Source: a virus
Taxonomy: Duplodnaviria > Caudoviricetes
IMG/VR virus record: IMGVR_UViG_3300032303_002590
Length of the DNA stretch: 64,000 bases
Direction: 5' to 3' (one strand)
Each line of letters begins with the position of its first letter. The first letter of the stretch is position 1. The notes under the pieces were generated by a model. It was not told where the DNA came from and did no database searches. It was given only the letters and a program-made list of their open reading frames with translations. A program made the position numbers and the translations under genes. This document shows, one piece after another, positions 34,873 to 57,794 of the stretch.

Positions 34873-35562
34873 ATGGAAAATACATTTAATTTAAAAAAAT
34901 TCCTTGCTGAAGGGAAATTATTAAAAGAAGAACAAACCTCGAATTTAGAACAAATAAACCCTGATTTTACCTCAGATAAAATAGTTACTACTTCTAATTA
35001 CGCTAATGATAGGGGACAACTTAAATCTCAATTTGGTAAACAATCCTATGATTTTGGAGGAAGTGAAGATCCTATTCCAAATTCTATAATAGTAGATGAT
35101 GCTGAACCTGAAGGTGATAATGAATGGATTCAATTCGATTTAAATAAAGTTGGAAAATTTCCACCAAAAAAATATATCAATTCAACTTTTACTATAGATT
35201 ATATTGATAATCAAAATAATTTAATAAAAACTATCCTAAACTCATTAGAAAGTGGTGGTATATTAGTTGTTTCTGAAAATGTGAAATCTGTATCTGATTT
35301 TTACAATAAACTGAAAAATAATTTTGATATATTAGAAGTTTATGATTTTATGGGTGATTTAAACGAAGGTGTATATACTCCCGAAGAAAGACAAGAAATG
35401 GCTGATAATATAAGAAAAAAATATACCATAAATGGTGTATACTATGATCCTTATTATCCCCTCCCACCTGGACTTAAATATGATAATGAAATGGGGGGTG
35501 ATGGTGAAGACGAAGAAGTAGATGAAAATTCAGTAATATCCCTAATTTTAAAGAAAAAATAA
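34873..35562 (+). CDS. leader-bearing protein with class I SAM-methyltransferase-like fold (start revised from 34840)
   Basis: Leader MENTFNLKKFLAEGKLLKEE; YDFGG...IVD...IQFDL...SLESGGILVV. Confidence 0.55.
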   Translation: MENTFNLKKFLAEGKLLKEEQTSNLEQINPDFTSDKIVTTSNYANDRGQLKSQFGKQSYDFGGSEDPIPNSIIVDDAEPEGDNEWIQFDLNKVGKFPPKKYINSTFTIDYIDNQNNLIKTILNSLESGGILVVSENVKSVSDFYNKLKNNFDILEVYDFMGDLNEGVYTPEERQEMADNIRKKYTINGVYYDPYYPLPPGLKYDNEMGGDGEDEEVDENSVISLILKKK

Positions 35563-35566
35563 AATT

Positions 35567-36010
35567 ATGTGGTTATACGAAAATAAAGAAATAAAAGAAT
35601 TAACAGATATGCCCGAATCTACATTCGGGTTTATTTATGAAGTAACTCATTTACCTACAGGAAGAAAATACTTAGGTAAAAAGCAATTAATATCTGTTCA
35701 AAGAAAAGCTTTAGGTAAAAAAGAATTAGCTTTAATTACTGATAAAAGAGCTTCTAAAAAGAAAACTGTTACTAAAGAAAGTGATTGGAAAACCTATTAC
35801 GGATCAAATCCAACAATTAAACAGATGTTAAAAGAAGGTAAACAAGACGAATTTACAAGAGAAATTATTATGTTTGTACCTAACAAAAAATTATTAACTT
35901 ACTATGAAGACAAATATCTTTATATTAATGAGGTAATAGAAAAAGGAGATACATATTTTAATGACAATATTTCAGGTCGTTTCTTTAAAAAAGACTTTAT
36001 AAAAAACTAG
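35567..36010 (+). CDS. GIY-YIG endonuclease, T4 endonuclease II (DenA)-like
   Basis: GFIY.....TGRKYLGKK...ESDWKTYYGS...FNDNI. Confidence 0.8.
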   Translation: MWLYENKEIKELTDMPESTFGFIYEVTHLPTGRKYLGKKQLISVQRKALGKKELALITDKRASKKKTVTKESDWKTYYGSNPTIKQMLKEGKQDEFTREIIMFVPNKKLLTYYEDKYLYINEVIEKGDTYFNDNISGRFFKKDFIKN

Positions 36011-36038
36011 GATACCACAAAATAATTTATTATATTAC
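36007..36038 (+). promoter_or_regulatory. host-sigma-type promoter for the primase operon
   Basis: TAGG-N19-TATATT. Confidence 0.6.
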
Positions 36039-36055
36039 CATAAAAACCTCTTATT

Positions 36056-36208
36056 ATGAAACGTTACAGCTTATATAATAAAAATTTAACCGAGGCTATT
36101 AATTCAATTAAATCGGCTAATTTAGAAGGAGCAATATTATTTTTTGCTTCTCAAAAAAGATTAGAAATTGATCAATTTCATAAGTTATTTGACGTAAGAG
36201 AATCATAA
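36056..36208 (+). CDS. small hypothetical protein (50 aa, not in track)
   Basis: Fills the gap after the promoter; MKRYSLYNK... Confidence 0.65.
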   Translation: MKRYSLYNKNLTEAINSIKSANLEGAILFFASQKRLEIDQFHKLFDVRES

Positions 36209-36224
36209 ATAGAAAAACAAGGTT

Positions 36225-37924: not shown

Positions 37925-37947
37925 ATATTTATATTAATAATATAAGA

Positions 37948-38700
37948 ATGATCAAACTAGCTACTTTATTAAAAGAAATACAAGGTACACCAAAAGCTAT
38001 ATTTTTAGCAGGTCCTGCTGGTAGTGGTAAGTCTACTTTGACTAAACAACTATTACCTTCCTCATACCAAGTTATTAATTCAGATGACACTTATGAAGAA
38101 CTTTTAAAAGCAAGTGGAATAGGTTTAAAACAAAAAGATTTTACTCCTGATCAATTATCACAAGCAGCTAAATTACAAGCACAAGCTAGAAAAACAACAC
38201 AAGATACATTAGCTAAATCCATCGAAGGTAAAAACAATATTATTATAGATGGAACTGGTGCTGCTTCAGGTCCTGTTTTAAAGAAAAAACAACAATTAGA
38301 GGATTTAGAGTACGAAACCTTAATGTTAATGATTTATGTTTCTCCTTTAACTTCACTTGAACGTAACCAAGAACGTGATAGAAGTTTAATACCCAGTATT
38401 GTGTTAAGAACATGGAGAGATGTTAATAAAAATATTAGTACTTACGAGCAAGCATTTGGAGATAATTTTATATTATTAAATAATGATTCTAAAGATTCAA
38501 ATAAAGGATTTTCACCCGAACTAATCAAACCCTTTACACAAGCCTCTTCTGCTATAGGAAAACCTAAAACACCAGAAGAAATGGCTAAATCTAAAGCTGA
38601 AAAAGATGCTTTGAATCAAGATATTGAATCAATGGTAAAAACTTTACCTAAATTTGATGATATAAGTTCTGCTAAATCTAAAATTCAAAATTTTATTTAA
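37948..38700 (+). CDS. P-loop kinase (AAA_33/zeta-like) with leader
   Basis: GPAGSGKST, INSD, IIDGT, ERN..R.R; N-terminus MIKLATLLKE. Confidence 0.85.
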   Translation: MIKLATLLKEIQGTPKAIFLAGPAGSGKSTLTKQLLPSSYQVINSDDTYEELLKASGIGLKQKDFTPDQLSQAAKLQAQARKTTQDTLAKSIEGKNNIIIDGTGAASGPVLKKKQQLEDLEYETLMLMIYVSPLTSLERNQERDRSLIPSIVLRTWRDVNKNISTYEQAFGDNFILLNNDSKDSNKGFSPELIKPFTQASSAIGKPKTPEEMAKSKAEKDALNQDIESMVKTLPKFDDISSAKSKIQNFI

Positions 38701-40145
38701 TGAATATTGGTAGACAAATAGTACAAGAACTATTAGAAGGTACAGAAAAAACAGTAGCTATTTATGGTGGTGGTTTTAAACCACCTACAAAAGGTCACTT
38801 TGAAGTAGCTAAATTAGCTTTAGAAAGACATCCAAATATAGACGAACTTATAATATATGTTGGTAGTGGAGTAAGAGATGGTATTACACAACAACAATCT
38901 GTAACCATTTGGAATATTTATAAAACTAAACTATCAGATAAAGTTCAAATAGTTACTCCTGATGTTCCTCCTGTTAGAGCAGTATTAAGATATGCTAAAG
39001 ATAATCCTGATACTAAGGTAATATGGATCTTAGGAGCAAGAGAAGACAGAGAAGAGGATTTTACAGATATAGCTAAACGAACTAAATCTATAGCTCAATA
39101 CCCAAACCTAACAGTAGATATAATATCAACTCAAGGTGGTATTTCAGGTACTGCAGCTAGACAAGCACTTAATTCTTCTAAAGAAGATTTCTTTCAATTT
39201 TTACCTGATGAGGTAGGACAACAAAAAAATGATATTTATGATATTTTAACCAATAACCAGTTTGAAGAAAGATTTATTCCTGGTCCTTTATTACATGAAT
39301 CTAAAATATTAAACGAATCCTTTACCCCTCAAAAAGCTCCATTAATGAAAAGATTTGTGGAATATGCTTGTAATCATTTAGATATAGATGAGCCTAAAAT
39401 AATGATAATAAATTCTCCTGAATACACTCAGGAACATCATAGTTTTGGAGGTTATTTTCCTCAAGAACATAAAATAAACGTTGTAGTTCATAATAGAAAC
39501 ATGGCTGATATTTTAAGAACATTAGCACACGAATTAGTTCATCACCTCCAAAATTTAAATGGGATGGAATTAAATGGTGAGGATGGTTCTGATACAGAAA
39601 ATGAAGCTAATGCTAGAGCAGGAGTAATAATGAGAGAATTTGGACGTAGTAATCCTGAAATTTTTGAAAGTAAATTAAATGAAGCAATAGTTGGTGATAG
39701 GATTGAATGTGATAATTGTGGTTGGAGTTGGCCAATAGCAGATGGGGGTGATGATCTTTTTATTTGTCATAAATGTGGACACGACAATACTGAGGAATAC
39801 GATGTTGAAAATGAACAAGATTTAAAAGAATTTATTTCATTTTTAAAAGAATATTCTCAACAATTATCTGAAGGAGAATTAACTGAAGCTGAATATCATG
39901 GACGTAAAGTTCAACTTGGTAAAATAATGCAAGGTGATATTAAGAAATTTAAAGTATACGTTAAAAATAACAAGGATAAAGTAGTTAAAGTTAACTTTGG
40001 GTTTGGTGGTTCATCAGCTCATGGTAAAAGAATGAACATTAAAGTACACAATCCTAAAAGAAGAGCAGCATATAGAGCAAGACATAATTGTGATAACCCA
40101 GGACCACGTTGGAAAGCGAATTATTGGTCTTGTAGAAAATGGTAA
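38700..40145 (+). CDS. multidomain protein: HIGH-type nucleotidyltransferase, HEXXH domain, Zn ribbon and C-terminal Cys/Trp domain
   Basis: GGFKPPTKGH...ISGTAAR; AHELVH; CDNC...CHKC; RHNC...YWSCRKW. Confidence 0.85.
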   Translation: MNIGRQIVQELLEGTEKTVAIYGGGFKPPTKGHFEVAKLALERHPNIDELIIYVGSGVRDGITQQQSVTIWNIYKTKLSDKVQIVTPDVPPVRAVLRYAKDNPDTKVIWILGAREDREEDFTDIAKRTKSIAQYPNLTVDIISTQGGISGTAARQALNSSKEDFFQFLPDEVGQQKNDIYDILTNNQFEERFIPGPLLHESKILNESFTPQKAPLMKRFVEYACNHLDIDEPKIMIINSPEYTQEHHSFGGYFPQEHKINVVVHNRNMADILRTLAHELVHHLQNLNGMELNGEDGSDTENEANARAGVIMREFGRSNPEIFESKLNEAIVGDRIECDNCGWSWPIADGGDDLFICHKCGHDNTEEYDVENEQDLKEFISFLKEYSQQLSEGELTEAEYHGRKVQLGKIMQGDIKKFKVYVKNNKDKVVKVNFGFGGSSAHGKRMNIKVHNPKRRAAYRARHNCDNPGPRWKANYWSCRKW

Positions 40146-40148
40146 TAA

Positions 40149-40688
40149 ATGATATCAATAAGTAAACTTTTCGAAGAAGAAAAACCAAAAATAAATTACG
40201 ACATCTATTGTGATATGGATGGTGTTTTAGCAGATTTTGAAGGTCGTTTTGAACACTTTACAGGAATGTCTCCTGATCAATATAGAGCAGAAATGACTAA
40301 AAAATACGGTGAGAAAAAAGCTGTAGATATGTTTTGGGATTTAATTGATCATGAAGTTGGAGTAAGATTTTGGAGAGGAATGTCTTGGATGCCTGGTGGT
40401 AAAGAATTATGGAATTATATTAAACCTAATAAACCTACTTTACTTACTGCCCCTTCATATAATGATTCCAGCAAAATTGGAAAAACTTTATGGGTACAAG
40501 ACCACATCCCAGGAGCTAAAATGATATTTAAGCAAGCTAAACAGAAAGCTGATTTAGCAGGTCCTAATAAAATATTAATTGATGATAGAGAAGATACTAT
40601 TATGAATTGGAAATCCAAAAATGGTATCGGAATTTTATATAAAAATACAGACCAAGCAATAAACGAATTAAAACAATTAGGAATATAA
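40149..40688 (+). CDS. HAD 5'(3')-nucleotidase (NT5C-like)
   Basis: DMDGVLADF...LLTA...K..W...ILIDD. Confidence 0.9.
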   Translation: MISISKLFEEEKPKINYDIYCDMDGVLADFEGRFEHFTGMSPDQYRAEMTKKYGEKKAVDMFWDLIDHEVGVRFWRGMSWMPGGKELWNYIKPNKPTLLTAPSYNDSSKIGKTLWVQDHIPGAKMIFKQAKQKADLAGPNKILIDDREDTIMNWKSKNGIGILYKNTDQAINELKQLGI

Positions 40689-40691
40689 GTT

Positions 40692-41261
40692 ATGTCACAA
40701 TTAAATAGAGAATTCGAAGAAAGAGATATCCAAAGAATGAGAAACATCATTTCAGGTAATACTGGAAATACTACTCGAATTCAATCCGGTTATAGTAAAG
40801 ATAAAGTTACTCATAGTGAAGGCGATACATGGGAAGAAAACGGTAAAACCTGGACTATTCACAGTGGTATTAAACAAACCGTCACCAAACACGATGCATT
40901 AAAGGCAATGGTAGAATTTCCACTTACTTGCCCATGTTGTTCTAAAGCAATGAAAGACATTCCATTAAACAGAAAAATGTATAACATACATTCTACATGT
41001 TTTGATTGTGTTGTTGAAATGGAACATAAATTACGTATGGAAGGTAAGTATGAAGCTTATGAAAAGCAAATGTTAAATGATAACAAAAATGCTACTATAG
41101 ATGATGCTGAACAAATGTTTGATGAGTATTTTAATTCAAAAAATAATACATACGTTACCGAAGCAGGTGATATAGAAAAATGGGATGGTGGTAGTATTGA
41201 CCCTGAAGTTATAAAACTAGTTAAAGATAATATAAAACGATTAAGAAAATTAGAAATATAA
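40692..41261 (+). CDS. hypothetical Zn-binding protein
   Basis: CPCC...CFDC. Confidence 0.75.
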   Translation: MSQLNREFEERDIQRMRNIISGNTGNTTRIQSGYSKDKVTHSEGDTWEENGKTWTIHSGIKQTVTKHDALKAMVEFPLTCPCCSKAMKDIPLNRKMYNIHSTCFDCVVEMEHKLRMEGKYEAYEKQMLNDNKNATIDDAEQMFDEYFNSKNNTYVTEAGDIEKWDGGSIDPEVIKLVKDNIKRLRKLEI

Positions 41262-41284
41262 ATATTTATATCAAAAAATAAACC

Positions 41285-41899
41285 ATGAGCAAATTAGACT
41301 TAAAAAACATAATTAAAGAAAGTATTACTGATTACTTATCAGAATTAAACTCCGTTAATGAAAATGATCCTGCTGTGCCATCTGATTCTACAGGTATGGC
41401 TTTGGATATGATAAATAAAACTCCAACACAAACTACAAGTGGAAATCCTCTTAGAGAAAAATCTCCAGATATCGTATTAGAAAATAATATTTCTAAAGAC
41501 GGTAAACTTTATTTAGTTAAAGAAGCTTTAAATGAATCAACTGATTCAAATATGATAGAGGAAAAACTACTATTAGACTTGATTGGTGAAGGATATACTG
41601 GTGTTTTTAATGATAAAAACAAAGCCATGGCTCATAGTAAAAAAGCTCTTAAAGAGAGAGATTTACTAATGAAAGAAAATGTTAAAAAAGGTCAAGCTAA
41701 AATTGGTGGTTTAGAAAAACAAGTAGCTGATTTAAAAGCTCAAATGCAAAAATTAATTGATAGTCCTGAAATGAGAGGTGAATTATCAAACTATACTGCT
41801 AAATTAGAAAAAACTGAACAAGTATTAGAAAAATTAAAAGCAGCAATAGAAAAATCTTCTCCTAAAAAAGCAAAGAAAGAAACTAAAGATGATGAATAA
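41285..41899 (+). CDS. leader-bearing coiled-coil late protein
   Basis: MSKLDLKNIIKE; several L/VxE sites. Confidence 0.75.
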   Translation: MSKLDLKNIIKESITDYLSELNSVNENDPAVPSDSTGMALDMINKTPTQTTSGNPLREKSPDIVLENNISKDGKLYLVKEALNESTDSNMIEEKLLLDLIGEGYTGVFNDKNKAMAHSKKALKERDLLMKENVKKGQAKIGGLEKQVADLKAQMQKLIDSPEMRGELSNYTAKLEKTEQVLEKLKAAIEKSSPKKAKKETKDDE

Positions 41900-43292
41900 T
41901 CTTGAACTTTTAAAAAATCATTTATATAAGTTAATTAAAGAGGAACTTGAAGGTGGTGAAGAGGAAAAACAAGCAGGACTTGAAAAAGCTCTGTATGATT
42001 TAGTACTTGAACCTGCTGATTTGCAAGCCACTTTATCAGCATTATCCGATATCAAAAATTATGGTATTTATGCTAATAATTTAAGAGATCCTAAAATTAT
42101 TGCTAAAATATTTGGTCCACCTGTACCTGCAACTAAAGGTAGAGTAGCTAAAGAAACTTGGGACCAAAGTAATGAAAACGAAAGACTTTCCAAAATAATT
42201 GATATTAAAAGTAGAGTACCACAAGAATGGACTAAAGTAGAACAACAGCTACAAAGCAAATTCGATGATTGGTCTGTTGAAAATGATAACGATTCATTTA
42301 ATGAATTTATAATTACATTAGATTCTAAAGAATTACCAATGGATTTCTTTGGTAAATATGCTTCTACATTTTATCCAATGAAAACACCTGATAACTTGAA
42401 AAAGTATAGTGGTGTAATGGCTAAAGATAAAGATTTTGTTGTTAATGGAGATAAAATTATTTTCCCACAAAAGAAAAACCCATTTGAAACTAAAGATTAC
42501 TTAACTAAAGTACTTAAAACTATAATGGGTAATGCTAAACTACAATATAGCTTATCCCAACAAGAATCAGAAGGTCAACCAGCAACTACTTCAAATACAC
42601 AAGGTAAAGTTGAAAAAATTAACTTCGTTAAAACATTTGACTCACCTGAATTAGCAGCTAAATTTAAAAAATTAATACCAAAAGATTTTGCTGAAAAAAC
42701 TACTATTGAAGGTAATAAAATCACAGTATCCGATATAACAGACTCACAAAAGAAAAATTTAATAGCTGCTGCATTAAAATTTGCAGAATCACAACCTAAA
42801 AAGAAACCAATGAAAGAATCATTAAAAGAACAAATATCTCAAATGGTAAGAGAGGTATTGATTGAAAAAAAATTAACTAAAGCACAACTTGTAGCTAGAG
42901 ATAAAGAAGGAAAAGATATTAAAAAGAAAAATCCTAAAATGCCCGAAGGTGAAGCTTTTGCTATTGCTACTAAAAATGTAGAAAAGAAAAAAGCTGTAAA
43001 AGAGGATTTAGATTCTGCTTTATCTAAATTAGTTAAAGATGATGATGCTTCTGAATTAGTAGCTCTTATAAAAAATTTACCAAATGCAGCTAGAGAAAAA
43101 GTAGCTCAAATGCTTAAAATAGATTTAAGTAAAGGAGAAATGGAAGAAGCTCGTTTTCCAAAAGGAACAGACATTGGTAAAAAAGGACCTGGATTTAAAG
43201 CTGTAGAAAAAGCTGCTGAAAAAGAATATGGTTCAAAAGAAGCAGGACAAAAAGTAGCAGGTGCTATACTTAAAAAAGTAATGAAAAAATAA
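41889..43292 (+). CDS. leader-bearing multidomain late protein
   Basis: KLIKEE leader; internal second leader-like segment SLKEQISQMVREVLIE; basic C-terminal modules. Confidence 0.75.
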   Translation: MMNNLELLKNHLYKLIKEELEGGEEEKQAGLEKALYDLVLEPADLQATLSALSDIKNYGIYANNLRDPKIIAKIFGPPVPATKGRVAKETWDQSNENERLSKIIDIKSRVPQEWTKVEQQLQSKFDDWSVENDNDSFNEFIITLDSKELPMDFFGKYASTFYPMKTPDNLKKYSGVMAKDKDFVVNGDKIIFPQKKNPFETKDYLTKVLKTIMGNAKLQYSLSQQESEGQPATTSNTQGKVEKINFVKTFDSPELAAKFKKLIPKDFAEKTTIEGNKITVSDITDSQKKNLIAAALKFAESQPKKKPMKESLKEQISQMVREVLIEKKLTKAQLVARDKEGKDIKKKNPKMPEGEAFAIATKNVEKKKAVKEDLDSALSKLVKDDDASELVALIKNLPNAAREKVAQMLKIDLSKGEMEEARFPKGTDIGKKGPGFKAVEKAAEKEYGSKEAGQKVAGAILKKVMKK

Positions 43293-43399
43293 TGTCAAAG
43301 TCAAGAAAAGTAGGTAAACAAAAACCTAACCACGGTAATCAAGTTAAAAGACAAAACGTTATTAAGAAAAACGAGCAAATTTTAACTAAATTAAAATAA
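43292..43399 (+). CDS. small basic peptide (35 aa, not in track)
   Basis: TAATG-coupled; MSKSRKVGKQKPNHGNQVKRQ... Confidence 0.6.
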   Translation: MSKSRKVGKQKPNHGNQVKRQNVIKKNEQILTKLK

Positions 43400-43400
43400 C

Positions 43401-43661
43401 ATGACAGAATCTACATTACGATACTTAATCAGAGAAGCAATAGAAGAAATTCATTTACAAAAACTATCTGAAAAATCTACTAATCCAACAGATAAAGTAA
43501 CTTTGGATATTCCACTTTTTATTCGTATGTTAGAATATGCGAGAGAGGATGCTCAAACTGATATGGATTTACATGATGTAACTGAAAAAACTATTGCTTT
43601 AAGCGCTAAAGGGAGAACTTTAACTATGGCTGACTATAATAAAATAGTAAGTAAAAAGTGA
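43401..43661 (+). CDS. leader-bearing small protein
   Basis: LRYLIREAIEE then DKVTLDIPLFIRMLEYAREDA. Confidence 0.8.
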   Translation: MTESTLRYLIREAIEEIHLQKLSEKSTNPTDKVTLDIPLFIRMLEYAREDAQTDMDLHDVTEKTIALSAKGRTLTMADYNKIVSKK

Positions 43662-43996
43662 TTAAATTAAGTCAATTAATAAACGAAATGGATTGTTGGG
43701 ATGGTAAAAAAATAGGCAATCCCAAAACTAAAATATCTTCTAAAACAGGTAAAAGAGTAAATAATTGTGTACCTATTAAAGAGGAAGAAGAAACATCTCA
43801 ATTAAATTTTCCTGATGGTTTTCAACCTGCAAAATCTGTTCCTCAAGGAGGAGCAATGTGTGCTAATTGTGCTAAATGGGATGAAAAAAATCAAGTTTGT
43901 AAAGGACAATACTATATTGAATGGAATGGTAATGGTGAAATACCTGCCGATCATACAGAATACGTTTGTATTTGGTGGGTAGATAAAAGAAAATAA
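43658..43996 (+). CDS. leader-bearing Cys-rich protein (HiPIP-like C-terminal motif)
   Basis: MIKLSQLINE; CWDG...NCVP; CANC..W...C...CIWW. Confidence 0.65.
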   Translation: MIKLSQLINEMDCWDGKKIGNPKTKISSKTGKRVNNCVPIKEEEETSQLNFPDGFQPAKSVPQGGAMCANCAKWDEKNQVCKGQYYIEWNGNGEIPADHTEYVCIWWVDKRK

Positions 43997-43998
43997 TT

Positions 43999-44343
43999 AT
44001 GATATCATTAAAAAATTTATTAAACGAAGGTACTCTAGATAAAATATTCCACTTAGATGGAATATTAATTGTAGACGATACTAATAGAAATCAAAAAGAT
44101 ATTCTATCTGATGTTCGTTCTTTACCTGGTATTACAGTAGTAAGAAACGTAGAGATGGAACAAGATGCTACTTCACGTTATTTTAGAAGTAGACTAGAAA
44201 TAAAAATTGATCCTTACCCATACGTTAAACAAGATAAATTTGATCCTACAGATACTATCCAAGTAATATCAGATAATATTAGAAAAATACCTGGAGTAAT
44301 AGGATTTAAAGAACAAGGAGACGTAACAACAACACAAGACTAA
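43999..44343 (+). CDS. leader-bearing small protein
   Basis: MISLKNLLNE; LSDVRSLPGIT...IRKIPGV. Confidence 0.75.
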   Translation: MISLKNLLNEGTLDKIFHLDGILIVDDTNRNQKDILSDVRSLPGITVVRNVEMEQDATSRYFRSRLEIKIDPYPYVKQDKFDPTDTIQVISDNIRKIPGVIGFKEQGDVTTTQD

Positions 44344-44346
44344 ATC

Positions 44347-44637
44347 ATGACTAAATTAGAACTTAAAAAATTGATAAAAGAAACCATATTAAATGAAATG
44401 GTTAATACCCATCCAGTACATAAAAGTATTAATAATAAATTAATGCAAATTGCTAATCGTGAAAAAATGAATAGCGATGAAGACAAGGTTGTTGGGTATG
44501 TTTTTTGGGATAAACCCGAAGATCCTGAAAATTATCTTCAAACTAGAGTTTATTTAAATAAAAAAACAGGAGAAAGATATGTTAAACAAGTAGGTGATGG
44601 TGTAGGAGAAGATTTAAATCAACCACCAAATGACTAA
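44347..44637 (+). CDS. leader-bearing small protein
   Basis: MTKLELKKLIKETILNE. Confidence 0.75.
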   Translation: MTKLELKKLIKETILNEMVNTHPVHKSINNKLMQIANREKMNSDEDKVVGYVFWDKPEDPENYLQTRVYLNKKTGERYVKQVGDGVGEDLNQPPND

Positions 44638-46468
44638 ACTATCAATATTAAGAAGATTAATCAAAGAAGAGATTGAGGATTTCCAAAATTCTCAACCTTT
44701 GACTTTTGAAAGTGATCCATTAGAGTATATTCTTCAAAAGTATTCTTCATTAAATGATACATTAGAAGATTTAATGACACCACACTATAGAGATTTTATT
44801 TCTGGTGTATTTGTAATAGCTCCTAAACCAACTACATTTAGAGTTATACTTCATAATAAACAAGAATTTCTTTTAATTTATGGAGAAACTTGTTATACTG
44901 CTAAAATAGCAGGTAAAAAGTATTATTTAGAAAATTTATCTGAAGAAGAATTTGCTATTACTTCTATTGCTCAATTATTAGAACTAGGTTTACCTCCAGG
45001 AAGTACTGGACCTGAAAAACCAGAAGAAAACGAAGCAAACCCAACCGAAGAAAAACCAGCAGAAGAAGCACCAGAAGAAGAAACTAAACCAGAACCTGTA
45101 AAAGAAGGGGTAAAAAAAAACTTAAAATTCGTTATTAAGGAGGCAAGTTTATCACCTGCCGAATTAGAAAAACCATTTACTTCAAAATCCGAATTTAAAG
45201 ATCAATATAGTGATAGAGGTGAAAGATTTTTAGATAAAATAAAAAATCAACAACCTTTTGAATTAAATGATGGTACTCAAGTAGTTTTAGATCCTAAAGC
45301 AACTGCTGAAGCTATTAAAGATTTACAATCTAAAGATTACAAAACTTTAGGTAAAGGTAAAATCTTTATTGATACTGAAGGTAATGCTTATGGGTTATCT
45401 GCATTTAAAAAAACACCTGAATTTGGAAGTGGAGCAGGACAAGGTGGAGGAGCTGAAAATACTGATGTACAAGAATCTGCTCAAAGCGTAGTAAATTCTA
45501 TTGCCTATAAAATTTTAGGAAAAACTATTAAAGCTGAAGATTTAACACCTGAAAATTTAACCGCAGCATATGCTATAAGTGATGTTACTGCTGGATTAGA
45601 TTCTATTATAGAATATGTTACTACTAAAAAACAATGGACATCAACCTTTGTTAATACTGCAAATTTATTATTAAAAACTTTCCCAAGTAAATCTTTACAA
45701 CAACATAGAGGTTCTTCATTTGTAAAATCAATATATGGAGCATTTTCTGTTGCTAAAAAACAAGAAGGTAGTTCATTAAACAATGACAAATGGAACCCAG
45801 CTGATATTTGGATGGTAGATGAATCTATATTAGGAATGGAATTTCCAACTAATTTAGAAGAACTAAATGGAGTAATGGCTGATTTATATACTAATAAAAA
45901 ATTAATTGGTGTTTCATTAAAACAATTAGCCGGAGAAGGAGAAATTAAAGTCTATAATTTAGATAAGGAAGCTACTAAATCACATCAATATAAAGGATAC
46001 GAATCAAGAGCTACAAATAACAATACTGTTTTAAATTATGATGATGGATCTATTACATTCAGAACATTTAATTTTGCAGGTAATTTTGCAGGTGAAATAA
46101 AAGGTAAAAAAGCTGCTCATGGTAAAATAGGTCAGGGCCCTATTAATGATGTGTTAAAATTAAATGGGTTAACATTATTACCTAATGCTAAAGAAGTTCA
46201 AGATGGGTTTAAAAGCAATAATCAAAAGCTAATTGATGACTTTTATCAATCATATAAAGAAATAGTTGAAAATATTAACCCTGAACAATTTGATGAACTT
46301 GTAAAATCAAAAGATTTAAACTGGTTAACATCTAAGTATTTATCTACTAAATTAGCATTTATATTAAAATCATTAGAACCTGAAAAACAAAATGAAGTAA
46401 TATCAGATATGTTAAATTATGCTTCTTCATCAACAAAATCTAGTTCAGTATTTGTAAAAGTATCTTAG
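44630..46468 (+). CDS. leader-bearing protein with PD-(D/E)XK-like C-terminal domain
   Basis: LRRLIKEE; P/E linker; QES...KWNPADIW...IGVSLK. Confidence 0.65.
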   Translation: MTKLSILRRLIKEEIEDFQNSQPLTFESDPLEYILQKYSSLNDTLEDLMTPHYRDFISGVFVIAPKPTTFRVILHNKQEFLLIYGETCYTAKIAGKKYYLENLSEEEFAITSIAQLLELGLPPGSTGPEKPEENEANPTEEKPAEEAPEEETKPEPVKEGVKKNLKFVIKEASLSPAELEKPFTSKSEFKDQYSDRGERFLDKIKNQQPFELNDGTQVVLDPKATAEAIKDLQSKDYKTLGKGKIFIDTEGNAYGLSAFKKTPEFGSGAGQGGGAENTDVQESAQSVVNSIAYKILGKTIKAEDLTPENLTAAYAISDVTAGLDSIIEYVTTKKQWTSTFVNTANLLLKTFPSKSLQQHRGSSFVKSIYGAFSVAKKQEGSSLNNDKWNPADIWMVDESILGMEFPTNLEELNGVMADLYTNKKLIGVSLKQLAGEGEIKVYNLDKEATKSHQYKGYESRATNNNTVLNYDDGSITFRTFNFAGNFAGEIKGKKAAHGKIGQGPINDVLKLNGLTLLPNAKEVQDGFKSNNQKLIDDFYQSYKEIVENINPEQFDELVKSKDLNWLTSKYLSTKLAFILKSLEPEKQNEVISDMLNYASSSTKSSSVFVKVS

Positions 46469-48855: not shown

Positions 48856-49194
48856 ATGGAAAACACATTTAATTTAAAATCATTCCTTGCTGAAGGGAAA
48901 TTACTAAAAGAAGAAATTCAAAACCTAGAACCTAAAATTCAAGCCTTTAAAAATTATGCAGAACCTAAAGTAGAAGACTTTAGAGACTTTTTACTATTTC
49001 TTGCTGAAGGTATGGGACATCACCAAGATTTTACTAAATATTCTGATATTGACTTAATCAAAATGGCTATTGAATTTGATGAGGAAGAATCAGGAAATGA
49101 CTGGTTAGAAGATAACTATGGAATTGATGTGTTAGATGGAGAGATAGCTTCATATAATGATGAAATAGAAACTTCTGGTAAAAGAGAAAGATAA
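48856..49194 (+). CDS. leader-bearing acidic protein
   Basis: Leader MENTFNLKSFLAEGKLLKEE is almost identical to that of 34873. Confidence 0.8.
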   Translation: MENTFNLKSFLAEGKLLKEEIQNLEPKIQAFKNYAEPKVEDFRDFLLFLAEGMGHHQDFTKYSDIDLIKMAIEFDEEESGNDWLEDNYGIDVLDGEIASYNDEIETSGKRER

Positions 49195-49842: not shown

Positions 49843-50805
49843 ATGAACATTAACGATAATTTTGATTTACGTAAACATAGAGATGCTTTATTAGCTGAAT
49901 CAACAATTAATGAAAGATTTGCTGACAAAATATATGATGTAAATCCTTTAACAGGTGAAAAAGAAAGAGTAATCTACGAAAATGATTTTGAAGTATCTAG
50001 AATGGGTATCTTTGATGATATTGATGGAGATTTAGAATATGAAGATGATAGAATAGGATACTTAGACGCTATTATCAAATATTGTACTAAACAAATGGAA
50101 GATATAGGTAATGATAATGGTGGGTTAGATGATATTGATTCTTCGGATGAAGAAGTTCCTCTAGAAGAAATGGCTAAATTAACTGGTGCTGGAGGTGTTT
50201 TTACAACTTTAGGAAAAAGAGCAGCTGATATTATCCAAAATAACCCGGAATTAGAAAAATCAGCTCTATTAAAAGCTTTAAATTCAGATCCTGAAATTGC
50301 TCAAATTTTAGATGCTAGTGAAGAAGAATTACATCAAAACCAAACAAATAAATTTGCTGCTTTAGTTCGTGGTTCAAGAGAATTAGGACAAAGAGGTAGA
50401 AAAGCAGATCCAAATAAACCAGCTGCTGAACCAAAAGCAAAAGTAGAAAAACCAACTTCACAAAAATTAAAAATAACTAACCCAAAAGCTAACGAAAAAC
50501 CTGTTTCTACAGTATTTGGTGGTGAAGAAAATGATGCCGAAGATATTGCTGATGAAATGGCTGCAACAAGAGCTGCTAAGGGTAATAAAAGATTAGGTAC
50601 GGCTGCTGAAAAATTAGCTCAAGTAACTAAAGAAATGAAAGCTTTAGTTCCTGCTTATCAAGCTGCTAAAGGTACTCCTAAAGAAGCTGCTATTGTAGCT
50701 CAATTAAAAGCTTTAACTGCTGAGAAAAAATCATTAGAAGCTAAAGTATACAAAGAACCAAAAGCATTAAGTGCTGCTGATTTGATGGGTGGAGAAGAAA
50801 TATAA
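49843..50805 (+). CDS. leader-bearing late protein (acidic N-half, basic C-half)
   Basis: NFDLRK...LLAE..INE; internal PLEEMA. Confidence 0.75.
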   Translation: MNINDNFDLRKHRDALLAESTINERFADKIYDVNPLTGEKERVIYENDFEVSRMGIFDDIDGDLEYEDDRIGYLDAIIKYCTKQMEDIGNDNGGLDDIDSSDEEVPLEEMAKLTGAGGVFTTLGKRAADIIQNNPELEKSALLKALNSDPEIAQILDASEEELHQNQTNKFAALVRGSRELGQRGRKADPNKPAAEPKAKVEKPTSQKLKITNPKANEKPVSTVFGGEENDAEDIADEMAATRAAKGNKRLGTAAEKLAQVTKEMKALVPAYQAAKGTPKEAAIVAQLKALTAEKKSLEAKVYKEPKALSAADLMGGEEI

Positions 50806-54454: not shown

Positions 54455-54495
54455 AATCAATATTTATAATTAGTAGTTAAATATATTTTGAATAA

Positions 54496-55356
54496 ATGGC
54501 TAATATAAAGCACAACAAATATAAAAATACTGGGATCCTATTTGAATTACTTGTAAGAAAAATTACAGCTGATACAATGTCCAGTCATGATTCTAAGGCT
54601 GTTTCTTTGATTAAAAAGTATTTTGTGAATACTGAATTATCTAAAGAAAATAAATTGTATCAATCGATATCTAAATCCCAAAGTATTAGTGAAGCTCAAG
54701 CTGATTCAATCCTTTCAACCATCTTAGAAGTAAACAAAACTTTAGATAGAACTAAAATATCAAAAGAAAAATATAATTTAATTAAAGAAATTAAATCTAA
54801 TTTTGATATTGATGATTTTTTTAAAGCTAAAATTAATAATTACAAATTATTATCTTCCACTTATACATTATTAGAAGCTAGTTTAGCACCATCTAAATTT
54901 TTAGATGATATTCTTTCTGCTAAAATGAATATTTTAGAGAATATAGCACAAACTAACGCTATAAGTGTTCCACAACCCACAGTAAGTGAGTTTGAAACAT
55001 TAGATAAAGGAACTCGTGCTTTAGTTTATAAAATAATGTTAGAAAAATTCAATGACAGATTTAATACATTATCTGATGATCAGAAAGAAGTATTAAAAGA
55101 GTACATTAATAATATTTCTAACACTACCAATTTAAAAAAATACGTGGATACTAAATTCACATCATTAAAAGAATCTCTTTTAAAACTTTTACCTACAATA
55201 GAGGACGCTACAATTAAAATTAAAGTGAATGAGACAATAAATCTTATTAACCCTATTTTAGAATCTAAAGTTATAAAAGACGATAATATAGTTGCATTAT
55301 TACAATATCAAGAACTACATAGTGAATTAACAAAAATTCATAATGCAAATAGATAA
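54496..55356 (+). CDS. conserved head-region protein
   Basis: Between portal and protease; own late promoter. Confidence 0.75.
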   Translation: MANIKHNKYKNTGILFELLVRKITADTMSSHDSKAVSLIKKYFVNTELSKENKLYQSISKSQSISEAQADSILSTILEVNKTLDRTKISKEKYNLIKEIKSNFDIDDFFKAKINNYKLLSSTYTLLEASLAPSKFLDDILSAKMNILENIAQTNAISVPQPTVSEFETLDKGTRALVYKIMLEKFNDRFNTLSDDQKEVLKEYINNISNTTNLKKYVDTKFTSLKESLLKLLPTIEDATIKIKVNETINLINPILESKVIKDDNIVALLQYQELHSELTKIHNANR

Positions 55357-56077
55357 ATTAAAAGAATTAGTACTAAAACATCTAGCTGAACTTCTTGATG
55401 AAGAATCAGCTTCTGGTGACGCTGGAGGTTATTTAGGAATTAAAGCTTTTAAACCTAAATACGAAGCAGTTAATAAAGTATTTAATCGTAATCCTGCCCG
55501 TCCTAAAACAGCACAAGATACTAATTCACCTGCTGGATTTGAATCAATGCCTGATTCAGCTAAAGTTTATATAAAAGGTGGATTTAAAGTAGTTAAACCT
55601 GAAGAAAGAATTGATGCTAAGGATTTATGGAAAGGACAGCATTTAAATGAAGAAGAAAGAATAGCACATGCTCGTAAACACTCCTTTAAAAAACCTACAA
55701 AACAACATGAAACCTCTAAATCAGGACATGAAGATTTACCAAACCCCGATAAATATTTTGAACTAGTGAAATTTAAAATTGTAGATCCTAAGAAAACTAA
55801 AAAGAAAGAAGAACCACTTAATGAAGTTCGTTATTCTCAATTTAAATCTCAATCTAAAACTCGTACACCTCAAGAGCAATTACATATGGGTGTTAAACAA
55901 ATTCAACATAAATTAGATGAAATTAATAAATTAGTTGAGTTTGCTACTAGAATGAAAACTGAATTAAAAGGTGATGCTGATCAAATGAACTACTTAAAAC
56001 GTACTCATAATGCATTGTTTAAAATAAACGAAAGAATACAAGATATTAATAATAAAATAAAAGGTTTAACTGAATAA
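55343..56077 (+). CDS. probable prohead core/internal protein
   Basis: LLDEE and two LNE sites; head operon. Confidence 0.65.
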   Translation: MQIDKLKELVLKHLAELLDEESASGDAGGYLGIKAFKPKYEAVNKVFNRNPARPKTAQDTNSPAGFESMPDSAKVYIKGGFKVVKPEERIDAKDLWKGQHLNEEERIAHARKHSFKKPTKQHETSKSGHEDLPNPDKYFELVKFKIVDPKKTKKKEEPLNEVRYSQFKSQSKTRTPQEQLHMGVKQIQHKLDEINKLVEFATRMKTELKGDADQMNYLKRTHNALFKINERIQDINNKIKGLTE

Positions 56078-56223
56078 TGGCAGCAAAAGTAAAAGCAGCT
56101 TCATCTACTACTAAAGTAGAAAAAGTTAAGGTAAAAAGACCTGGTGTTCACTCTAAAAGTAAAACATCAAAGTTAAAAAATTCTAAGAATTACAAAAAAC
56201 TATACAGAGGGCAAGGTAAATAA
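56077..56223 (+). CDS. small very basic peptide ending YRGQGK (48 aa, not in track)
   Basis: TAATG-coupled; K/S-rich; C-terminal motif recalled from T4-like phages. Confidence 0.75.
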   Translation: MAAKVKAASSTTKVEKVKVKRPGVHSKSKTSKLKNSKNYKKLYRGQGK

Positions 56224-56237
56224 AAATATTTATACAC

Positions 56238-57794
56238 ATGACAGTTCAAAACTTATACACACAATACCTAGATGGTAAGGTAACCAAACAAAAATTTCTT
56301 TACGAAGTACGTAGAGACCAAAACCTTACTATGATATCCCCAACTAACTCATTTGATGATGTTATTAAGATATTAAAAAACAAATCTATAATTTCAGAAA
56401 AGGCTTCTAAAGAGTCTAAACAATCAACTGGAAAACAAGAAGTAGATATTATATCTAAAACTATTGATATGGTTAATCCATATGAATATGCTAGAGGTAT
56501 GGATTATGAACTTAATATTATAGATGTACCTGTAACTTCTGGAGATTTACATACAGATAATGTACTTAGAGCTCAGAAAAAAGTATTAGCTAATCTTACT
56601 AAAAATCCTCAATATTATTTTGAAAAATTATATGGTAAAGATAAATTTGACGGTGATGAAACTGTTGAAATTAATAAAAAATCAACTGATGCTATTGGTA
56701 AAGGTAAAAATGCTAAGATAATTAGAGAAGTAACCGACGCTCAAGAAAAGTACAGAGTAAAACCATCTGCAAAACCAACACAATTTAAACAAGATATTGC
56801 AGCAGCTAAGAAAATGATTAATGCTGGGAAATCTGAAAAAGAAGTAGTAGCAAAATATGGTCAAGCCGCTTTTAATGCCGTAAATGCACAAAACTTAGGA
56901 GAAGGAAATTTAGGTCATAATGAAAAATCTAGTATTCATCAAGAAGGAGGTTCTTGGATAGTTACCTATAAAAAAGATGGTACAAAAGAAAAAGTATTTA
57001 AATCTGAAGCAGAAGCTAAAAAATTCCAAAATAGTTTAGATGAAGGATTAGAAGGAGATCATATTACAAAAGAAGATATAGCAAATGAACTTTCTAACAG
57101 AGGAGCTAGTGATTCTGAAATAAACCAATATCTTGATTCATTAGAAAGATCAAATGATAAATTTGAAACACTAGAAGACTATGTTGAAGACTTTTTAAAC
57201 TATGTTGCTGATAAAAGTTTAAATGAAAGCTACAATCCATTCCCAATGAATGAAGACCAAGAAGCAGTATTAAAAAGATATGCTGAATCAACTGGTATAG
57301 CTTTTGAAAACCTATTAAACATGGTTGCTGAAGCTAAAGCAAAAAAAAAAGCTAAAAAAGACTATGATGGTAATGGTAAAATAGAATCACCTGAAGAAGA
57401 ATATAAAGGCTCTCGTGATAAAGCTATAAAACAAGCTATTGGTGAAGATATAGATTTAGGTCACCAAGATAACGAACCACATATGGTTAAAGCTGATTTG
57501 TATCAAATAGCTAAACAAGCATCTGAATTATATAAAATAATTGATTCTGTAGATAATATGGGAGAAGTTGATTTTCCTAGCTGGTGGCAAGCAAAAATAA
57601 CTTTAGCTAAAAGTTACTTAGAAGGAGCAAAAGATTATTTAGAAAGTGCTTTAGCAACAGGTAATGAAGAAGGAGAATTAGCAGAAAACGAAACTCCAGA
57701 AGAAGCTAAAGCTAGAACTTTAGAATTACAAGCTGAAAAAGCTAAAATAGCAGCATCGCAGAAAAAAATATCTGATCTTAATCAAGGAAGATAA
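56238..57794 (+). CDS. probable internal head polyprotein
   Basis: Modules separated by ISE, IRE, LGE, LDE, LNE, IGE and LAE; DYDGNGKIE; WWQAKIT. Confidence 0.7.
   Translation: MTVQNLYTQYLDGKVTKQKFLYEVRRDQNLTMISPTNSFDDVIKILKNKSIISEKASKESKQSTGKQEVDIISKTIDMVNPYEYARGMDYELNIIDVPVTSGDLHTDNVLRAQKKVLANLTKNPQYYFEKLYGKDKFDGDETVEINKKSTDAIGKGKNAKIIREVTDAQEKYRVKPSAKPTQFKQDIAAAKKMINAGKSEKEVVAKYGQAAFNAVNAQNLGEGNLGHNEKSSIHQEGGSWIVTYKKDGTKEKVFKSEAEAKKFQNSLDEGLEGDHITKEDIANELSNRGASDSEINQYLDSLERSNDKFETLEDYVEDFLNYVADKSLNESYNPFPMNEDQEAVLKRYAESTGIAFENLLNMVAEAKAKKKAKKDYDGNGKIESPEEEYKGSRDKAIKQAIGEDIDLGHQDNEPHMVKADLYQIAKQASELYKIIDSVDNMGEVDFPSWWQAKITLAKSYLEGAKDYLESALATGNEEGELAENETPEEAKARTLELQAEKAKIAASQKKISDLNQGR

What the first reader, a model, noticed from the sequence alone, without database searches (positions are those of the whole stretch)
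34873..57794. Modular head-cargo system: shared (I/L)xE leaders fused to many unrelated enzymes
Seen: at least 14 late-region proteins with unrelated bodies begin with a short amphipathic leader ending in (I/L/F)xE. They are MIKLATLLKE (37948, kinase), MNIGRQIVQELLE (38700, nucleotidyltransferase), MISISKLFEE (40149, nucleotidase), MSKLDLKNIIKE (41285), ..LYKLIKEE (41889), MTESTLRYLIRE (43401), MIKLSQLINE (43658), MISLKNLLNE (43999), MTKLELKKLIKE (44347), MTKLSILRRLIKEE (44630, nuclease-like), MENTFNLKxFLAEGKLLKEE (34873 and 48856), NFDLRK..LLAE (49843) and KLKELV..LLDEE (55343); 20077 outside this span has one too. Genes under host-type promoters (primase, exonuclease, oxidoreductase, NadR-like kinase) lack the leader. 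Known: T4 internal proteins carry a 10-aa capsid-targeting sequence (MKTYQEFIAE) removed by gp21 at (I/L)xE, and a gp21 homologue is encoded at 57797. Inference: this phage packages a large, swappable payload of enzymes in its head and injects it with the DNA, far beyond T4's few internal proteins.
Basis: partly seen in the sequence, partly recalled or inferred. Interest (0 to 1): 0.88.

Follow-up and report, generated by a model that had tools for sequence, protein, structure and literature searches.

The report
Clip-off capsid address tags on phage proteins
A T4-like phage of Flavobacteria puts short, interchangeable N-terminal tags, built like phage T4's "load me into the head" peptide and ending in its head protease's cutting motif, on about 15 unrelated late proteins. 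This most likely loads a changeable protein cargo into the capsid, but nobody has measured that here.

Summary
All 15 listed N-termini are in the sequence. A T4-CTS-type motif (hydrophobic-x-x-hydrophobic-hydrophobic-x-Glu, ending at residue 8-20) occurs in 17 of 98 ORFs against 5 expected. It is in 11 of 22 genes at 34.9-49.8 kb against 2 of 47 early ORFs.

The window is a T4-type Flavobacterium myophage, nearest to Immutovirus. It has a T4-type portal, an S77 prohead protease with the catalytic triad kept, a scaffold and a Gp23-type capsid protein.

In 80 related loci the same four leader classes each sit on 12-13 unrelated bodies. Leader identity is 57-84%; body identity is 6-11%. One class copies the scaffold protein's C-terminal tail and another resembles its N-terminus. 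The 10-residue class has T4's register (hydrophobic 4, 7, 8; Glu 10).

The best reading is capsid-targeting propeptides removed by the protease, a variant of T4's internal-protein system.

Overstated or unverified:
- Only three cargoes match enzyme families.
- The "nuclease-like" protein has no detectable known fold.
- "Host-type promoters" could not be checked.
- Packaging, cutting and injection are untested.

The scan has reported the same theme on other phage genomes.

The parts
34873..35562 (+). Class-2 leader (MENTFNLKKFLAEGKLLKE, nt 34873-34929) on a 210-aa body of unknown function
   Evidence: The same leader is on 12+ unrelated bodies in public data. Only a weak PHROG methyltransferase hit.
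37925..37933 (+). Late-promoter-like motif ATATTTATA ahead of the operon 37948-41261
   Evidence: 17 of 18 copies are on the + strand. Others lie ahead of the terminase, portal, neck, baseplate and fibre genes.
37948..38700 (+). Class-1a leader MIKLATLLKE on a P-loop kinase (AAA_33/Zeta_toxin-like)
   Evidence: the domain match starts at residue 18 (profile position 2). The P-loop follows the leader.
38700..40145 (+). Leader MNIGRQIVQELLE on a multi-domain protein: HxGH nucleotidyltransferase, HExxH-like segment, Zn ribbon and a C-terminal domain
   Evidence: Homologues head 600-1400-aa polyproteins with similar leaders.
40149..40688 (+). Class-1a leader MISISKLFEE on a 5'(3')-deoxyribonucleotidase (NT5C/HAD fold)
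   Evidence: AF2 pLDDT 96. Z 15 to human dNT-1/dNT-2 over model residues 14-179, so the leader lies outside the fold.
41262..41270 (+). Late-promoter-like motif ahead of the operon 41285-46468
41285..41899 (+). Class-1b leader MSKLDLKNIIKE on a 192-aa body of unknown function
   Evidence: No Pfam or PHROG family. No immuto homologue.
41889..43292 (+). 18-residue leader ending LYKLIKE on a 449-aa Lys/Glu-rich body
   Evidence: No family.
43401..43661 (+). Class-1b leader MTESTLRYLIRE on a 74-aa body
43658..43996 (+). Class-1a leader (GTG start) MIKLSQLINE on a 102-aa body
43999..44343 (+). Class-1a leader MISLKNLLNE on a 104-aa body
44347..44637 (+). Class-1b leader MTKLELKKLIKE on an 84-aa body
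44630..46468 (+). 13-residue leader MTKLSILRRLIKE, small N-domain, disordered linker, then a widely conserved 440-aa domain of unknown fold
   Evidence: Model: helix 3-20, a low-confidence break at 19-27, C-domain pLDDT above 90. No Foldseek or VIA match.
48856..49194 (+). Second copy of the class-2 leader on an unrelated 92-aa body. The gene is absent from close relatives.
   Evidence: 56 of 60 leader nucleotides are identical to 34873 and the flanks are unrelated; no homologue in L010, L014 or L015.
49843..50805 (+). Class-2-like leader MNINDNFDLRKHRDALLAE on a 301-aa body, behind the late motif at 49805
   Evidence: The family is kept just upstream of the terminase only in the closest relatives.
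55343..56077 (+). Head-cluster protein (in the position of T4 gp67/gp68) with a 20-residue leader ending LAELLDE
   Evidence: Counterparts in immuto and L050 carry MKKSQIVKAVQEVLEE and MNREILEALVQEVLDE.
20077..20565 (+). Leader MKLDAFRKVIRE on a 150-aa protein among the baseplate genes, behind a late motif at 20065
   Evidence: The immuto homologue has MKLDLLKKLIKE.
57797..58414 (+). Prohead serine protease (Peptidase_S77, gp21 homologue)
   Evidence: E 6e-31. H75, S128/S129 and D155 align with T4 H85, S140 and D165. The N-terminal LLIE is conserved with T4.
58603..59619 (+). Acidic scaffold protein. Its C-terminal tail (KRMQQLAGII) is the template of leader class 3 in relatives. Its N-terminus resembles class 2.
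59658..61307 (+). Gp23-type major capsid protein with a predicted 61-residue propeptide ending LVVE|S
   Evidence: E61 is invariant and aligns with the T4 gp23 FLTE|A and gp24 LLRE|S sites.

Best explanation
The short N-terminal leaders are capsid-targeting propeptides of the T4 kind.

Proposed mechanism:
1. Late in infection, each tagged protein binds through its leader to the assembling prohead core (scaffold) and is enclosed by the shell.
2. The S77 prohead protease (57797) then cuts after the Glu that ends the leader, at a hydrophobic-x-Glu site of the same type as in the capsid protein and scaffold. This frees the mature body inside the head.
3. Folded bodies that cannot leave the shell stay with the DNA and can be delivered at the next infection.
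4. Because the address is a separate 10-20-residue module, cargo genes can be gained, lost or exchanged without changing the assembly machinery.

Shown here: the motif, its enrichment, its modularity, its likeness to T4's experimentally defined CTS register and to the phage's own scaffold termini, the protease and its likely site in the capsid protein, and the late-operon context.

Inferred: binding, cleavage, retention and injection.
For: 1. Register. The 10-residue class (MIKLATLLKE, MISISKLFEE, MIKLSQLINE, MISLKNLLNE) has hydrophobic residues at 4, 7 and 8 and Glu at 10. T4 IPII/IPIII (MKTYQEFIAE) and gp24 (MAKINELLRE) have the same. In T4, residues 4 and 7 carry targeting and 8 and 10 carry processing, and gp21 cuts after L/I-x-E (PMC9026906).

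2. Machinery. T4-type portal, S77 protease and Gp23 capsid protein are present. The catalytic triad is kept. The T4 gp23 cleavage site aligns with LVVE|S here.

3. Enrichment and placement. The T4 control recovers the known substrates.

4. Modularity:
- In 80 related loci plus immuto, four leader classes each sit on 12-13 unrelated body clusters.
- Leader identity is 0.57-0.84 and body identity 0.06-0.11, with the break at the Glu.
- A database search with the class-2 leader returns a dozen unrelated bodies behind a near-identical leader.

5. Link to the prohead core:
- Class 3 (MKKQLNEIKRMQQLAGIITE) copies the extreme C-terminal tail found on all 21 scaffold homologues.
- Class 2 shares F..(I/L)(A/T)(E/D)(A/G)K with scaffold N-termini. 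All 49 N-terminal hits are scaffold or class-2 proteins, against 6.8 expected (a pattern chosen after looking).
- Leader-bearing genes also lie inside the head cluster (55343).

6. The leader is an appendage:
- Pfam domains start 5-8 residues after it.
- The NT5C model matches solved deoxyribonucleotidases from residue 14 on.
- The 44630 model has a separate N-terminal helix.

7. The same hydrophobic-x-E joints precede the NT5C module when it is internal to 600-1400-aa homologous polyproteins (82 of 87). This argues against a role tied to translation starts.

8. Late context. The leader operons start behind ATATTTATA, as do the terminase, portal, neck, baseplate and fibre genes.
Against: - There are no virion proteomics, N-terminal data or genetics for this phage or any relative. 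No paper was found in the held library.
- The motif is short and the proteome is rich in Leu, Ile, Lys and Glu, so 4-5 hits are expected by chance.
- Two listed leaders (38700, 49843) fit only the looser rule.
- Glu-rich linkers raise the background for hydrophobic-x-E at internal joints.
- Nucleotide-handling enzymes would be useful in the cytoplasm, and nothing shows they act after injection.
- In immuto, some leader genes lie in non-late regions (1803, 25061), and its nucleotidyltransferase protein has no obvious leader.
- The late-promoter assignment rests only on association with structural genes.
Confidence: 0.65

Rival explanations
1. The leaders do target proteins to the prohead, but most tagged proteins are accessory core or scaffold components. 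They would be chopped up and expelled at maturation (like T4 gp22, gp67 and gp68), not a payload kept and injected.
For: - Several bodies are Lys/Glu/Ala-rich and low in complexity, with many internal hydrophobic-x-E sites (41889, 49843, 55343, 56238).
- 55343 sits in the gp67/gp68 position.
- Two leader classes mimic the scaffold itself.
- T4 core proteins are cleaved into fragments (PMC9026906).
Against: - Compact folded bodies (NT5C pLDDT 96; the kinase; the 440-aa domain of 44630) are unlikely scaffold material.
- High cargo turnover between close relatives does not fit essential assembly parts.
Confidence: 0.15
2. The shared leader is a recognition tag for another common partner, such as a modifying enzyme, a chaperone (relatives encode GroEL/GroES) or a membrane or secretion route. 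It would not be a capsid address.
For:
- Immuto encodes GroES and GroEL.
Against: - Every leader class ends in the protease's motif.
- One class is a copy of the scaffold tail and one resembles its N-terminus.
- Among 50,697 cultured-phage records, class 3 is found only in immuto phages.
- Every database relative fetched here was reached through the T4-type terminase.
- No candidate modifying enzyme was seen among the families scanned in 34.8-61.3 kb.
Confidence: 0.08
3. The N-terminal likeness is a by-product. It could come from AT-rich start regions that favour translation initiation, or from an ancestral N-terminal helix kept by paralogues. It would have no sorting role.
For: - The genome is 28-30% G+C.
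- Leaders are made of residues with AT-rich codons.
- The two class-2 copies are 56 of 60 identical at the DNA level.
Against: - Early genes of the same genome lack the motif (2 of 47 against 11 of 22).
- The fixed positions are the hydrophobic ones and the Glu, while the others vary.
- The bodies are unrelated, so paralogy does not explain it.
- The same joints occur inside polyproteins, far from any start codon.
Confidence: 0.05

Closest known systems
Phage T4 internal proteins IPI, IPII, IPIII and Alt, with the capsid targeting sequence (CTS) removed by gp21 (Mullaney & Black 1996; reviews PMC3012670, PMC9026906)
   Same: - A roughly 10-residue N-terminal tag with hydrophobic 4, 7, 8 and Glu 10.
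- A cleavage motif of hydrophobic-x-Glu.
- An S77 protease.
- The tag is conserved while the mature parts are unrelated.
- One T4 cargo (Alt) is an enzyme.
- The cargo set varies between relatives.
   Different: - At least four distinct leader classes in one lineage, of 10, 12, about 19 and about 21 residues. Two of them resemble the scaffold's own termini.
- About 15 tagged genes in 64 kb, mostly clustered in two late operons beside the head genes.
- Cargo includes kinase, nucleotidyltransferase and deoxyribonucleotidase domains, which are fused into giant jointed polyproteins in relatives.
- The host is a Bacteroidota species, and nothing has been measured.
T4 gp24 and gp23 propeptides, and multi-site cleavage of gp22, gp67 and gp68
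   Same: - The gp24 N-terminus MAKINELLRE|S is nearly a class-1a leader.
- The gp23 site aligns with LVVE|S of the capsid protein here.
- The LLIE near the protease N-terminus is conserved.
   Different: Those are structural or core proteins, not exchangeable cargo.
Ejection and inner-body proteins of phiKZ, 201phi2-1 and SPN3US, processed by a diverged gp21-type protease (PMC9026906, PMC5694885, PMC7411985)
   Same: - Many head-internal proteins, including enzymes (virion RNA polymerase subunits).
- They carry propeptides cut after Glu.
   Different: - Their motif is S/A-x-E, not hydrophobic-x-E.
- No short shared transferable leader has been described.
- These are jumbo phages of another lineage.
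Scaffold C-terminal coat-binding tails (for example the P22 scaffolding protein; from my own knowledge)
   Same: A short terminal helix of the scaffold is the element that holds it inside the procapsid. Here, relatives reuse such a tail as an N-terminal tag.
   Different: Binding of this tail to the capsid protein was not tested. The window's own cargoes use classes 1 and 2, not the tail copy.

Membership tests
T4-type CTS-bearing, gp21-processed head-internal proteins | N-terminal propeptide of about 10 residues with hydrophobic residues at 4, 7 and 8 and Glu at 10 (an L/I-x-E site) | tested here: met
   Four window proteins fit exactly. The 12-13-residue class has the same spacing shifted by 2-3 residues. 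The class-2 internal site LKKFLAE also fits (rule from PMC9026906).
T4-type CTS-bearing, gp21-processed head-internal proteins | The phage encodes a gp21-type (Peptidase_S77) prohead protease with intact catalytic residues | tested here: met
   Pfam PF03420, E 6e-31, 108 bits against a cutoff of 27. H75, S128/129 and D155 align with T4 H85, S140 and D165. The triad numbering is from my own knowledge.
T4-type CTS-bearing, gp21-processed head-internal proteins | The tag is conserved while the mature parts are unrelated and vary between related phages | tested here: met
T4-type CTS-bearing, gp21-processed head-internal proteins | The protease cleaves after the Glu that ends the tag | not testable with these tools
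   Indirect only: the aligned capsid-protein site and the same motif at polyprotein joints.
T4-type CTS-bearing, gp21-processed head-internal proteins | The tag is sufficient to place a protein in the prohead core | not testable with these tools
The likeness of two leader classes to the scaffold termini is circumstantial.
T4-type CTS-bearing, gp21-processed head-internal proteins | The mature protein is present in DNA-filled virions and is ejected into the host | not testable with these tools
   No proteomic data were found for this lineage.
phiKZ-type processed ejection/inner-body proteins | Cleavage motif S/A-x-E | tested here: not met
   The leaders end in hydrophobic-x-E (L, I, F or V two residues before the Glu), as in T4. 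The phiKZ motif is taken from PMC9026906.
NT5C 5'(3')-deoxyribonucleotidase (cargo at 40149) | HAD fold with the DxDG nucleophile motif, and likeness to solved dNT enzymes | tested here: met
   - Pfam NT5C is just under its cutoff (24.1 against 24.8 bits).
- PHROG 2643, E 6e-25.
- D22 is invariant and D24 and G25 are nearly invariant.
- AF2 pLDDT 96. Z 15, rmsd 2.8-2.9 A over 152-157 residues to human dNT-1/dNT-2.
NMN/NaMN adenylyltransferase (cargo at 38700) | Full-length match to an NMNAT model above its cutoff | tested here: not met
   Only the HxGH-motif region (residues 14-60) matches, far below the cutoffs (16-24 bits against 112-240). Pfam CTP_transf_like gives E 3e-5. The protein has the class-I nucleotidyltransferase motif, but its substrate is unknown.
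PD-(D/E)XK nuclease (claimed for 44630) | A family or fold match to a restriction-endonuclease-like core | tested here: inconclusive
   No Pfam or NCBIfam family, and PHROG 1462 is of unknown function. A confident model (C-domain pLDDT above 90) has no Foldseek hit at E<=0.001. The best VIA Z is 5.9, and only on the small N-domain.

The most novel reading that the evidence does not exclude
Aquatic T4-like phages of Bacteroidota may run a lineage-wide plug-in loading system. It would have at least four interchangeable address tags, two of them borrowed from the scaffold protein's own ends. These would load a fast-changing cargo into the capsid. The cargo would include a nucleotide-handling set (P-loop kinase, HxGH nucleotidyltransferase with HExxH and Zn-ribbon modules, and a deoxyribonucleotidase). 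In relatives this set is strung into 600-1400-residue chains joined at head-protease sites. The enzymes would be delivered ready-made with the DNA and act before any phage gene is expressed, for example on nucleotide or NAD-type pools that host defences attack.
Probability: 0.3. Interest if true: 0.85.

Novelty: new variant of a known kind. Interest (0 to 1): 0.65.

Why it matters
If confirmed, T4's capsid-targeting trick would not be a peculiarity of T-even coliphages. It would be a general, modular loading system in a large environmental phage lineage: more than 590 related terminase loci were found in IMG/VR.

It would also give:
- a sequence rule for predicting injected proteins from genomes alone;
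- a list of candidate first-minute effectors and anti-defence proteins of unknown function;
- ready-made tags for packaging foreign proteins in phages of Bacteroidota.

The scaffold-mimic tags would give a testable clue to what a CTS binds, which is still unknown for T4.

Tried and rejected
- No whole genome is held for the window, so the count of tagged genes covers 64 kb only.
The context of the database hits and leader-scaffold binding could therefore not be examined.
- Sequence searches of the PDB with the kinase, nucleotidyltransferase and NT5C proteins found nothing.
- Foldseek and VIA-align on the 44630 model gave no convincing fold.
- The protein atlas gave no lead for 49843.
- The sigma-70 promoter scan is at chance level and does not suit Bacteroidota, so "host-type promoters" stays untested.
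- I considered that 49843 might be the small terminase because it sits just upstream of the large one. I rejected this as a positional argument, because the gene in that position differs among relatives.
- tblastn of a class-3 leader against 50,697 phage records hit only the immuto phages.
- Literature searches for Mel-JY01, immuto/Immutovirus and capsid targeting in metagenomic phages found no proteomic or mechanistic work on this lineage.
- ARAGORN found no tRNA in 9.5-14.5 kb.

Full report
**What the window is.** The 64-kb window has 23-34% G+C, with almost all genes on the + strand. Pfam finds the following:

| Gene | Coordinates | Match |
|---|---|---|
| Large terminase | 50891 | T4-type |
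| Portal | 52526 | T4-type, E 2e-68 |
| Prohead protease | 57797 | Peptidase_S77, E 6e-31 |
| Major capsid protein | 59658 | Gp23-type, E 8e-74 |

An acidic scaffold-like protein lies between the protease and the capsid protein. The nearest sequenced phages are the Flavobacterium phages vB_FspM_immuto (Immutovirus). Capsid-protein identity is 59%, and the order from fibres to the cargo block to terminase, portal, protease and capsid is the same. More than 590 related terminase loci exist in IMG/VR.

**Checking the observation.** Every N-terminus in the finding is there. 43658 uses a GTG start.

- The loose (I/L/F)xE rule is weak by itself, so I used tighter forms. Hydrophobic-hydrophobic-[KRNEQ]-E ends at residue 8-20 in 16 of 98 ORFs against 3.8 expected, with a sharp pile-up at residues 10 and 12.
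- The heptad hydrophobic-x-x-hydrophobic-hydrophobic-x-E ends at residue 8-20 in 17 of 98 ORFs against 5.0 expected (Poisson 2e-5).
- It is in 11 of 22 genes between 34873 and 49843, but only 2 of 47 ORFs in the first 15 kb (Fisher 2e-5).
- As a control, the same kind of detector on 112 kb of T4 picks out ipII, ipIII, gp22 and gp24. Otherwise it gives roughly the chance number of hits.
- The leaders are only modestly more amphipathic than other N-termini.

**What the leaders look like.** There are three kinds in the window:
- a 10-residue class (MIKLATLLKE, MISISKLFEE, MIKLSQLINE, MISLKNLLNE);
- a 12-13-residue class (MSKLDLKNIIKE, MTESTLRYLIRE, MTKLELKKLIKE, MTKLSILRRLIKE);
- a 19-residue class (MENTFNLK[K/S]FLAEGKLLKE, twice, and a looser relative at 49843).

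T4's own sequences, read from the T4 record, are MKTYQEFIAE (IPII, IPIII) and MAKINELLRE (gp24). The 10-residue class has the same register: hydrophobic at 4, 7 and 8, and Glu at 10. In T4, residues 4 and 7 were shown to carry targeting and 8 and 10 processing. gp21 cuts after L/I-x-E (PMC9026906). The longer classes keep the same spacing before their Glu.

**The protease and its likely sites.** The 57797 protein keeps the residues that align with T4 gp21 H85, S140 and D165, and the LLIE near the N-terminus. In an alignment of capsid proteins, the T4 gp23 site (FLTE|A) and the gp24 site (LLRE|S) fall on LVVE|S here (Glu61, an invariant column) and on IVSE|A in immuto. The enzyme, and the kind of site it should cut, are therefore in place.

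**Modularity.** tblastn shows that most small cargo genes have no counterpart in immuto, although immuto has its own leader-bearing genes in the same block.

| Leader class | Example | Proteins | Unrelated body clusters |
|---|---|---|---|
| 1a | MIKLxxLLNE | 17 | 12 |
| 1b | MKKSELKQLIKE | 20 | 13 |
| 2 | MENTFNLKKFLAEGKLLKE | 31 | 13 |
| 3 | MKKQLNEIKRMQQLAGIITE | 15 | 12 |

These counts come from the 80 related loci plus immuto and the window. Identity is 0.57-0.84 within leaders and 0.06-0.11 just behind them.

- A search of 5.8 billion proteins with the first 40 residues of the 34873 protein returned a dozen proteins with a near-identical leader and unrelated bodies.
- The two class-2 copies in the window are 56 of 60 identical at the DNA level, with unrelated flanks.
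- The 48856 gene is missing from relatives whose terminase is 84-89% identical.

**Link to the prohead core.** All 21 scaffold homologues in the data end in ..R(M/L)Q(K/Q)LAGI(I/K), preceded by a PIVE site.

- Leader class 3 is that tail moved to an N-terminus and followed by x-Glu. The window has no class-3 cargo, but its scaffold has the tail.
- Class 2 shares F..(I/L)(A/T)(E/D)(A/G)K with scaffold N-termini. All 49 N-terminal matches of that pattern are scaffold or class-2 proteins, against 6.8 expected. I chose this pattern after seeing the sequences, so it is suggestive only.
- Leader-bearing genes also lie inside the head cluster (55343 here, and its counterparts and class-2 genes in relatives).

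**The leader is an appendage.**
- Pfam domains begin 5-8 residues after the leader: kinase residue 18 is profile position 2, the nucleotidyltransferase starts at residue 21, and NT5C at residue 19.
- The NT5C protein folds with pLDDT 96. It matches human 5'(3')-deoxyribonucleotidases at Z 15 (rmsd 2.8-2.9 A, 152-157 residues) from model residue 14 onward, where the solved chains themselves begin.
- The 44630 model has an N-terminal helix (3-20) followed by a low-confidence break.

**Same joints inside polyproteins.** An exhaustive HMMER search with the NT5C protein found 4674 relatives.

- Many of the best hits are modules of 600-1400-residue proteins. These start with a leader plus the same HxGH nucleotidyltransferase (for example MNQLTKFLVDGILNE, then GGGFKPPT.GH). 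They continue through an HExxH segment, a Zn ribbon and other modules, and end in NT5C.
- A hydrophobic-x-E site lies within 18 residues upstream of the NT5C module in 82 of 87 internal cases. Glu-rich linkers make this less striking than it sounds.
- The window's kinase, nucleotidyltransferase and NT5C genes, each with its own leader, thus look like a split form of such chains.
- This also argues against any explanation tied to start codons.

**Expression context.** ATATTTATA occurs 18 times, 17 of them on the + strand. It lies just ahead of the terminase, portal, 54496, 56238, neck, baseplate and fibre genes, and ahead of the two leader operons (37948-41261 and 41285-46468) and 49843. A different, very regular motif (TTTCGTATATTTAA) precedes about 20 small early genes at 2.2-11.3 kb, none of which has a leader. 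That the first motif is a late promoter is inference from its company.

**What is overstated.**
- Only three cargoes match enzyme families.
- The nucleotidyltransferase cannot be called an NMNAT.
- The "nuclease-like" 44630 body belongs to a large family of unknown function, and its confident model matches no solved fold.
- "Host-type promoters" for the leaderless genes could not be checked. It is true that primase, exonuclease, oxidoreductase, the NadR-like kinase and the two homing endonucleases lack a leader.
- The idea that a conserved CTS carries diverse proteins into T-even heads is already in print (PMC3012670; PMC9026906).

**Verdict.** The most likely reading (about 0.65) is a T4-type capsid-targeting and propeptide system with several interchangeable tags and a fast-changing cargo. 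Rivals:
- core proteins that are degraded rather than delivered (0.15, probably true for some);
- a tag for another partner (0.08);
- a by-product of composition or paralogy (0.05).

Nothing has been measured. Virion mass spectrometry on a cultured relative would settle it. The scan has already reported the same theme on other phage genomes, including another Flavobacterium T4-like phage with the scaffold-tail tag. I reached the scaffold-tail observation independently, before reading that note.

Noticed in passing
window 2200-11300: A very regular early-promoter-like motif, TTTCGTATATTTAA(G)TATAA, lies 25-45 nt upstream of about 20 consecutive small genes, often after a short GC hairpin. It differs from the late-type ATATTTATA.
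   Followed up: partly
window 58603-59619, and 21 scaffold homologues in L009-L083 and immuto: All scaffold proteins end in the same tail..PIVE-xxDFVxRMQ(K/Q)LAGII. In relatives (not in this window) the tail is reused as an N-terminal leader on at least 12 unrelated proteins.
   Followed up: yes
P0019-P0167 (relatives of window 40149-40688): The NT5C module is mostly found inside 600-1400-aa multi-module proteins: HxGH nucleotidyltransferase, HExxH, Zn ribbon, HELEHLTQ-type modules, then NT5C. A second family has repeated (L/I)NEI(K/Q)(I/V) joints. The window's 38700 and 40149 genes look like a split version.
   Followed up: partly
window 56077-56223: A 48-aa, extremely basic protein (Lys/Ser-rich, no leader) lies inside the head cluster. 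It is 80% identical to a 45-aa immuto protein that lies in the cargo block instead. It may be a DNA-associated internal protein.
   Followed up: no
window 35567-36010 and 47913-48563: A SegE-type GIY-YIG endonuclease and a NUMOD-domain endonuclease sit within or at the edges of the cargo block. They may help gene turnover there.
   Followed up: no
L010, L014, L015 (about 2.3-7.5 kb in each): Close relatives carry a roughly 5-kb cassette of five leaderless genes (about 391, 355-370, 391, 235-245 and 160 aa). It lies between the oxidoreductase and the 48583 homologue, where the window has only the homing endonuclease.
   Followed up: no
window 44630-46468; P0184-P0287: The 440-aa C-domain family has more than 549 members. 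Most carry a different N-terminal module of about 45 residues (MDILEKFL..ISYKFPKGYPDMNN...) instead of the leader plus N-domain. An immuto protein has the same module.
   Followed up: partly
window 9880-13340: This stretch is richer in G+C (0.34) and has only short, odd ORFs, several on the minus strand. Rfam finds one tRNA-like match at 10696-10766 that ARAGORN does not call.
   Followed up: partly
T4 (L002, L007): The T4 CTS (MKTYQEFIAE) resembles the N-terminus of T4's own scaffold gp22 (MLKEQLIAE). This parallels the scaffold-like leaders seen here. I do not know whether this has been pointed out in print.
   Followed up: no
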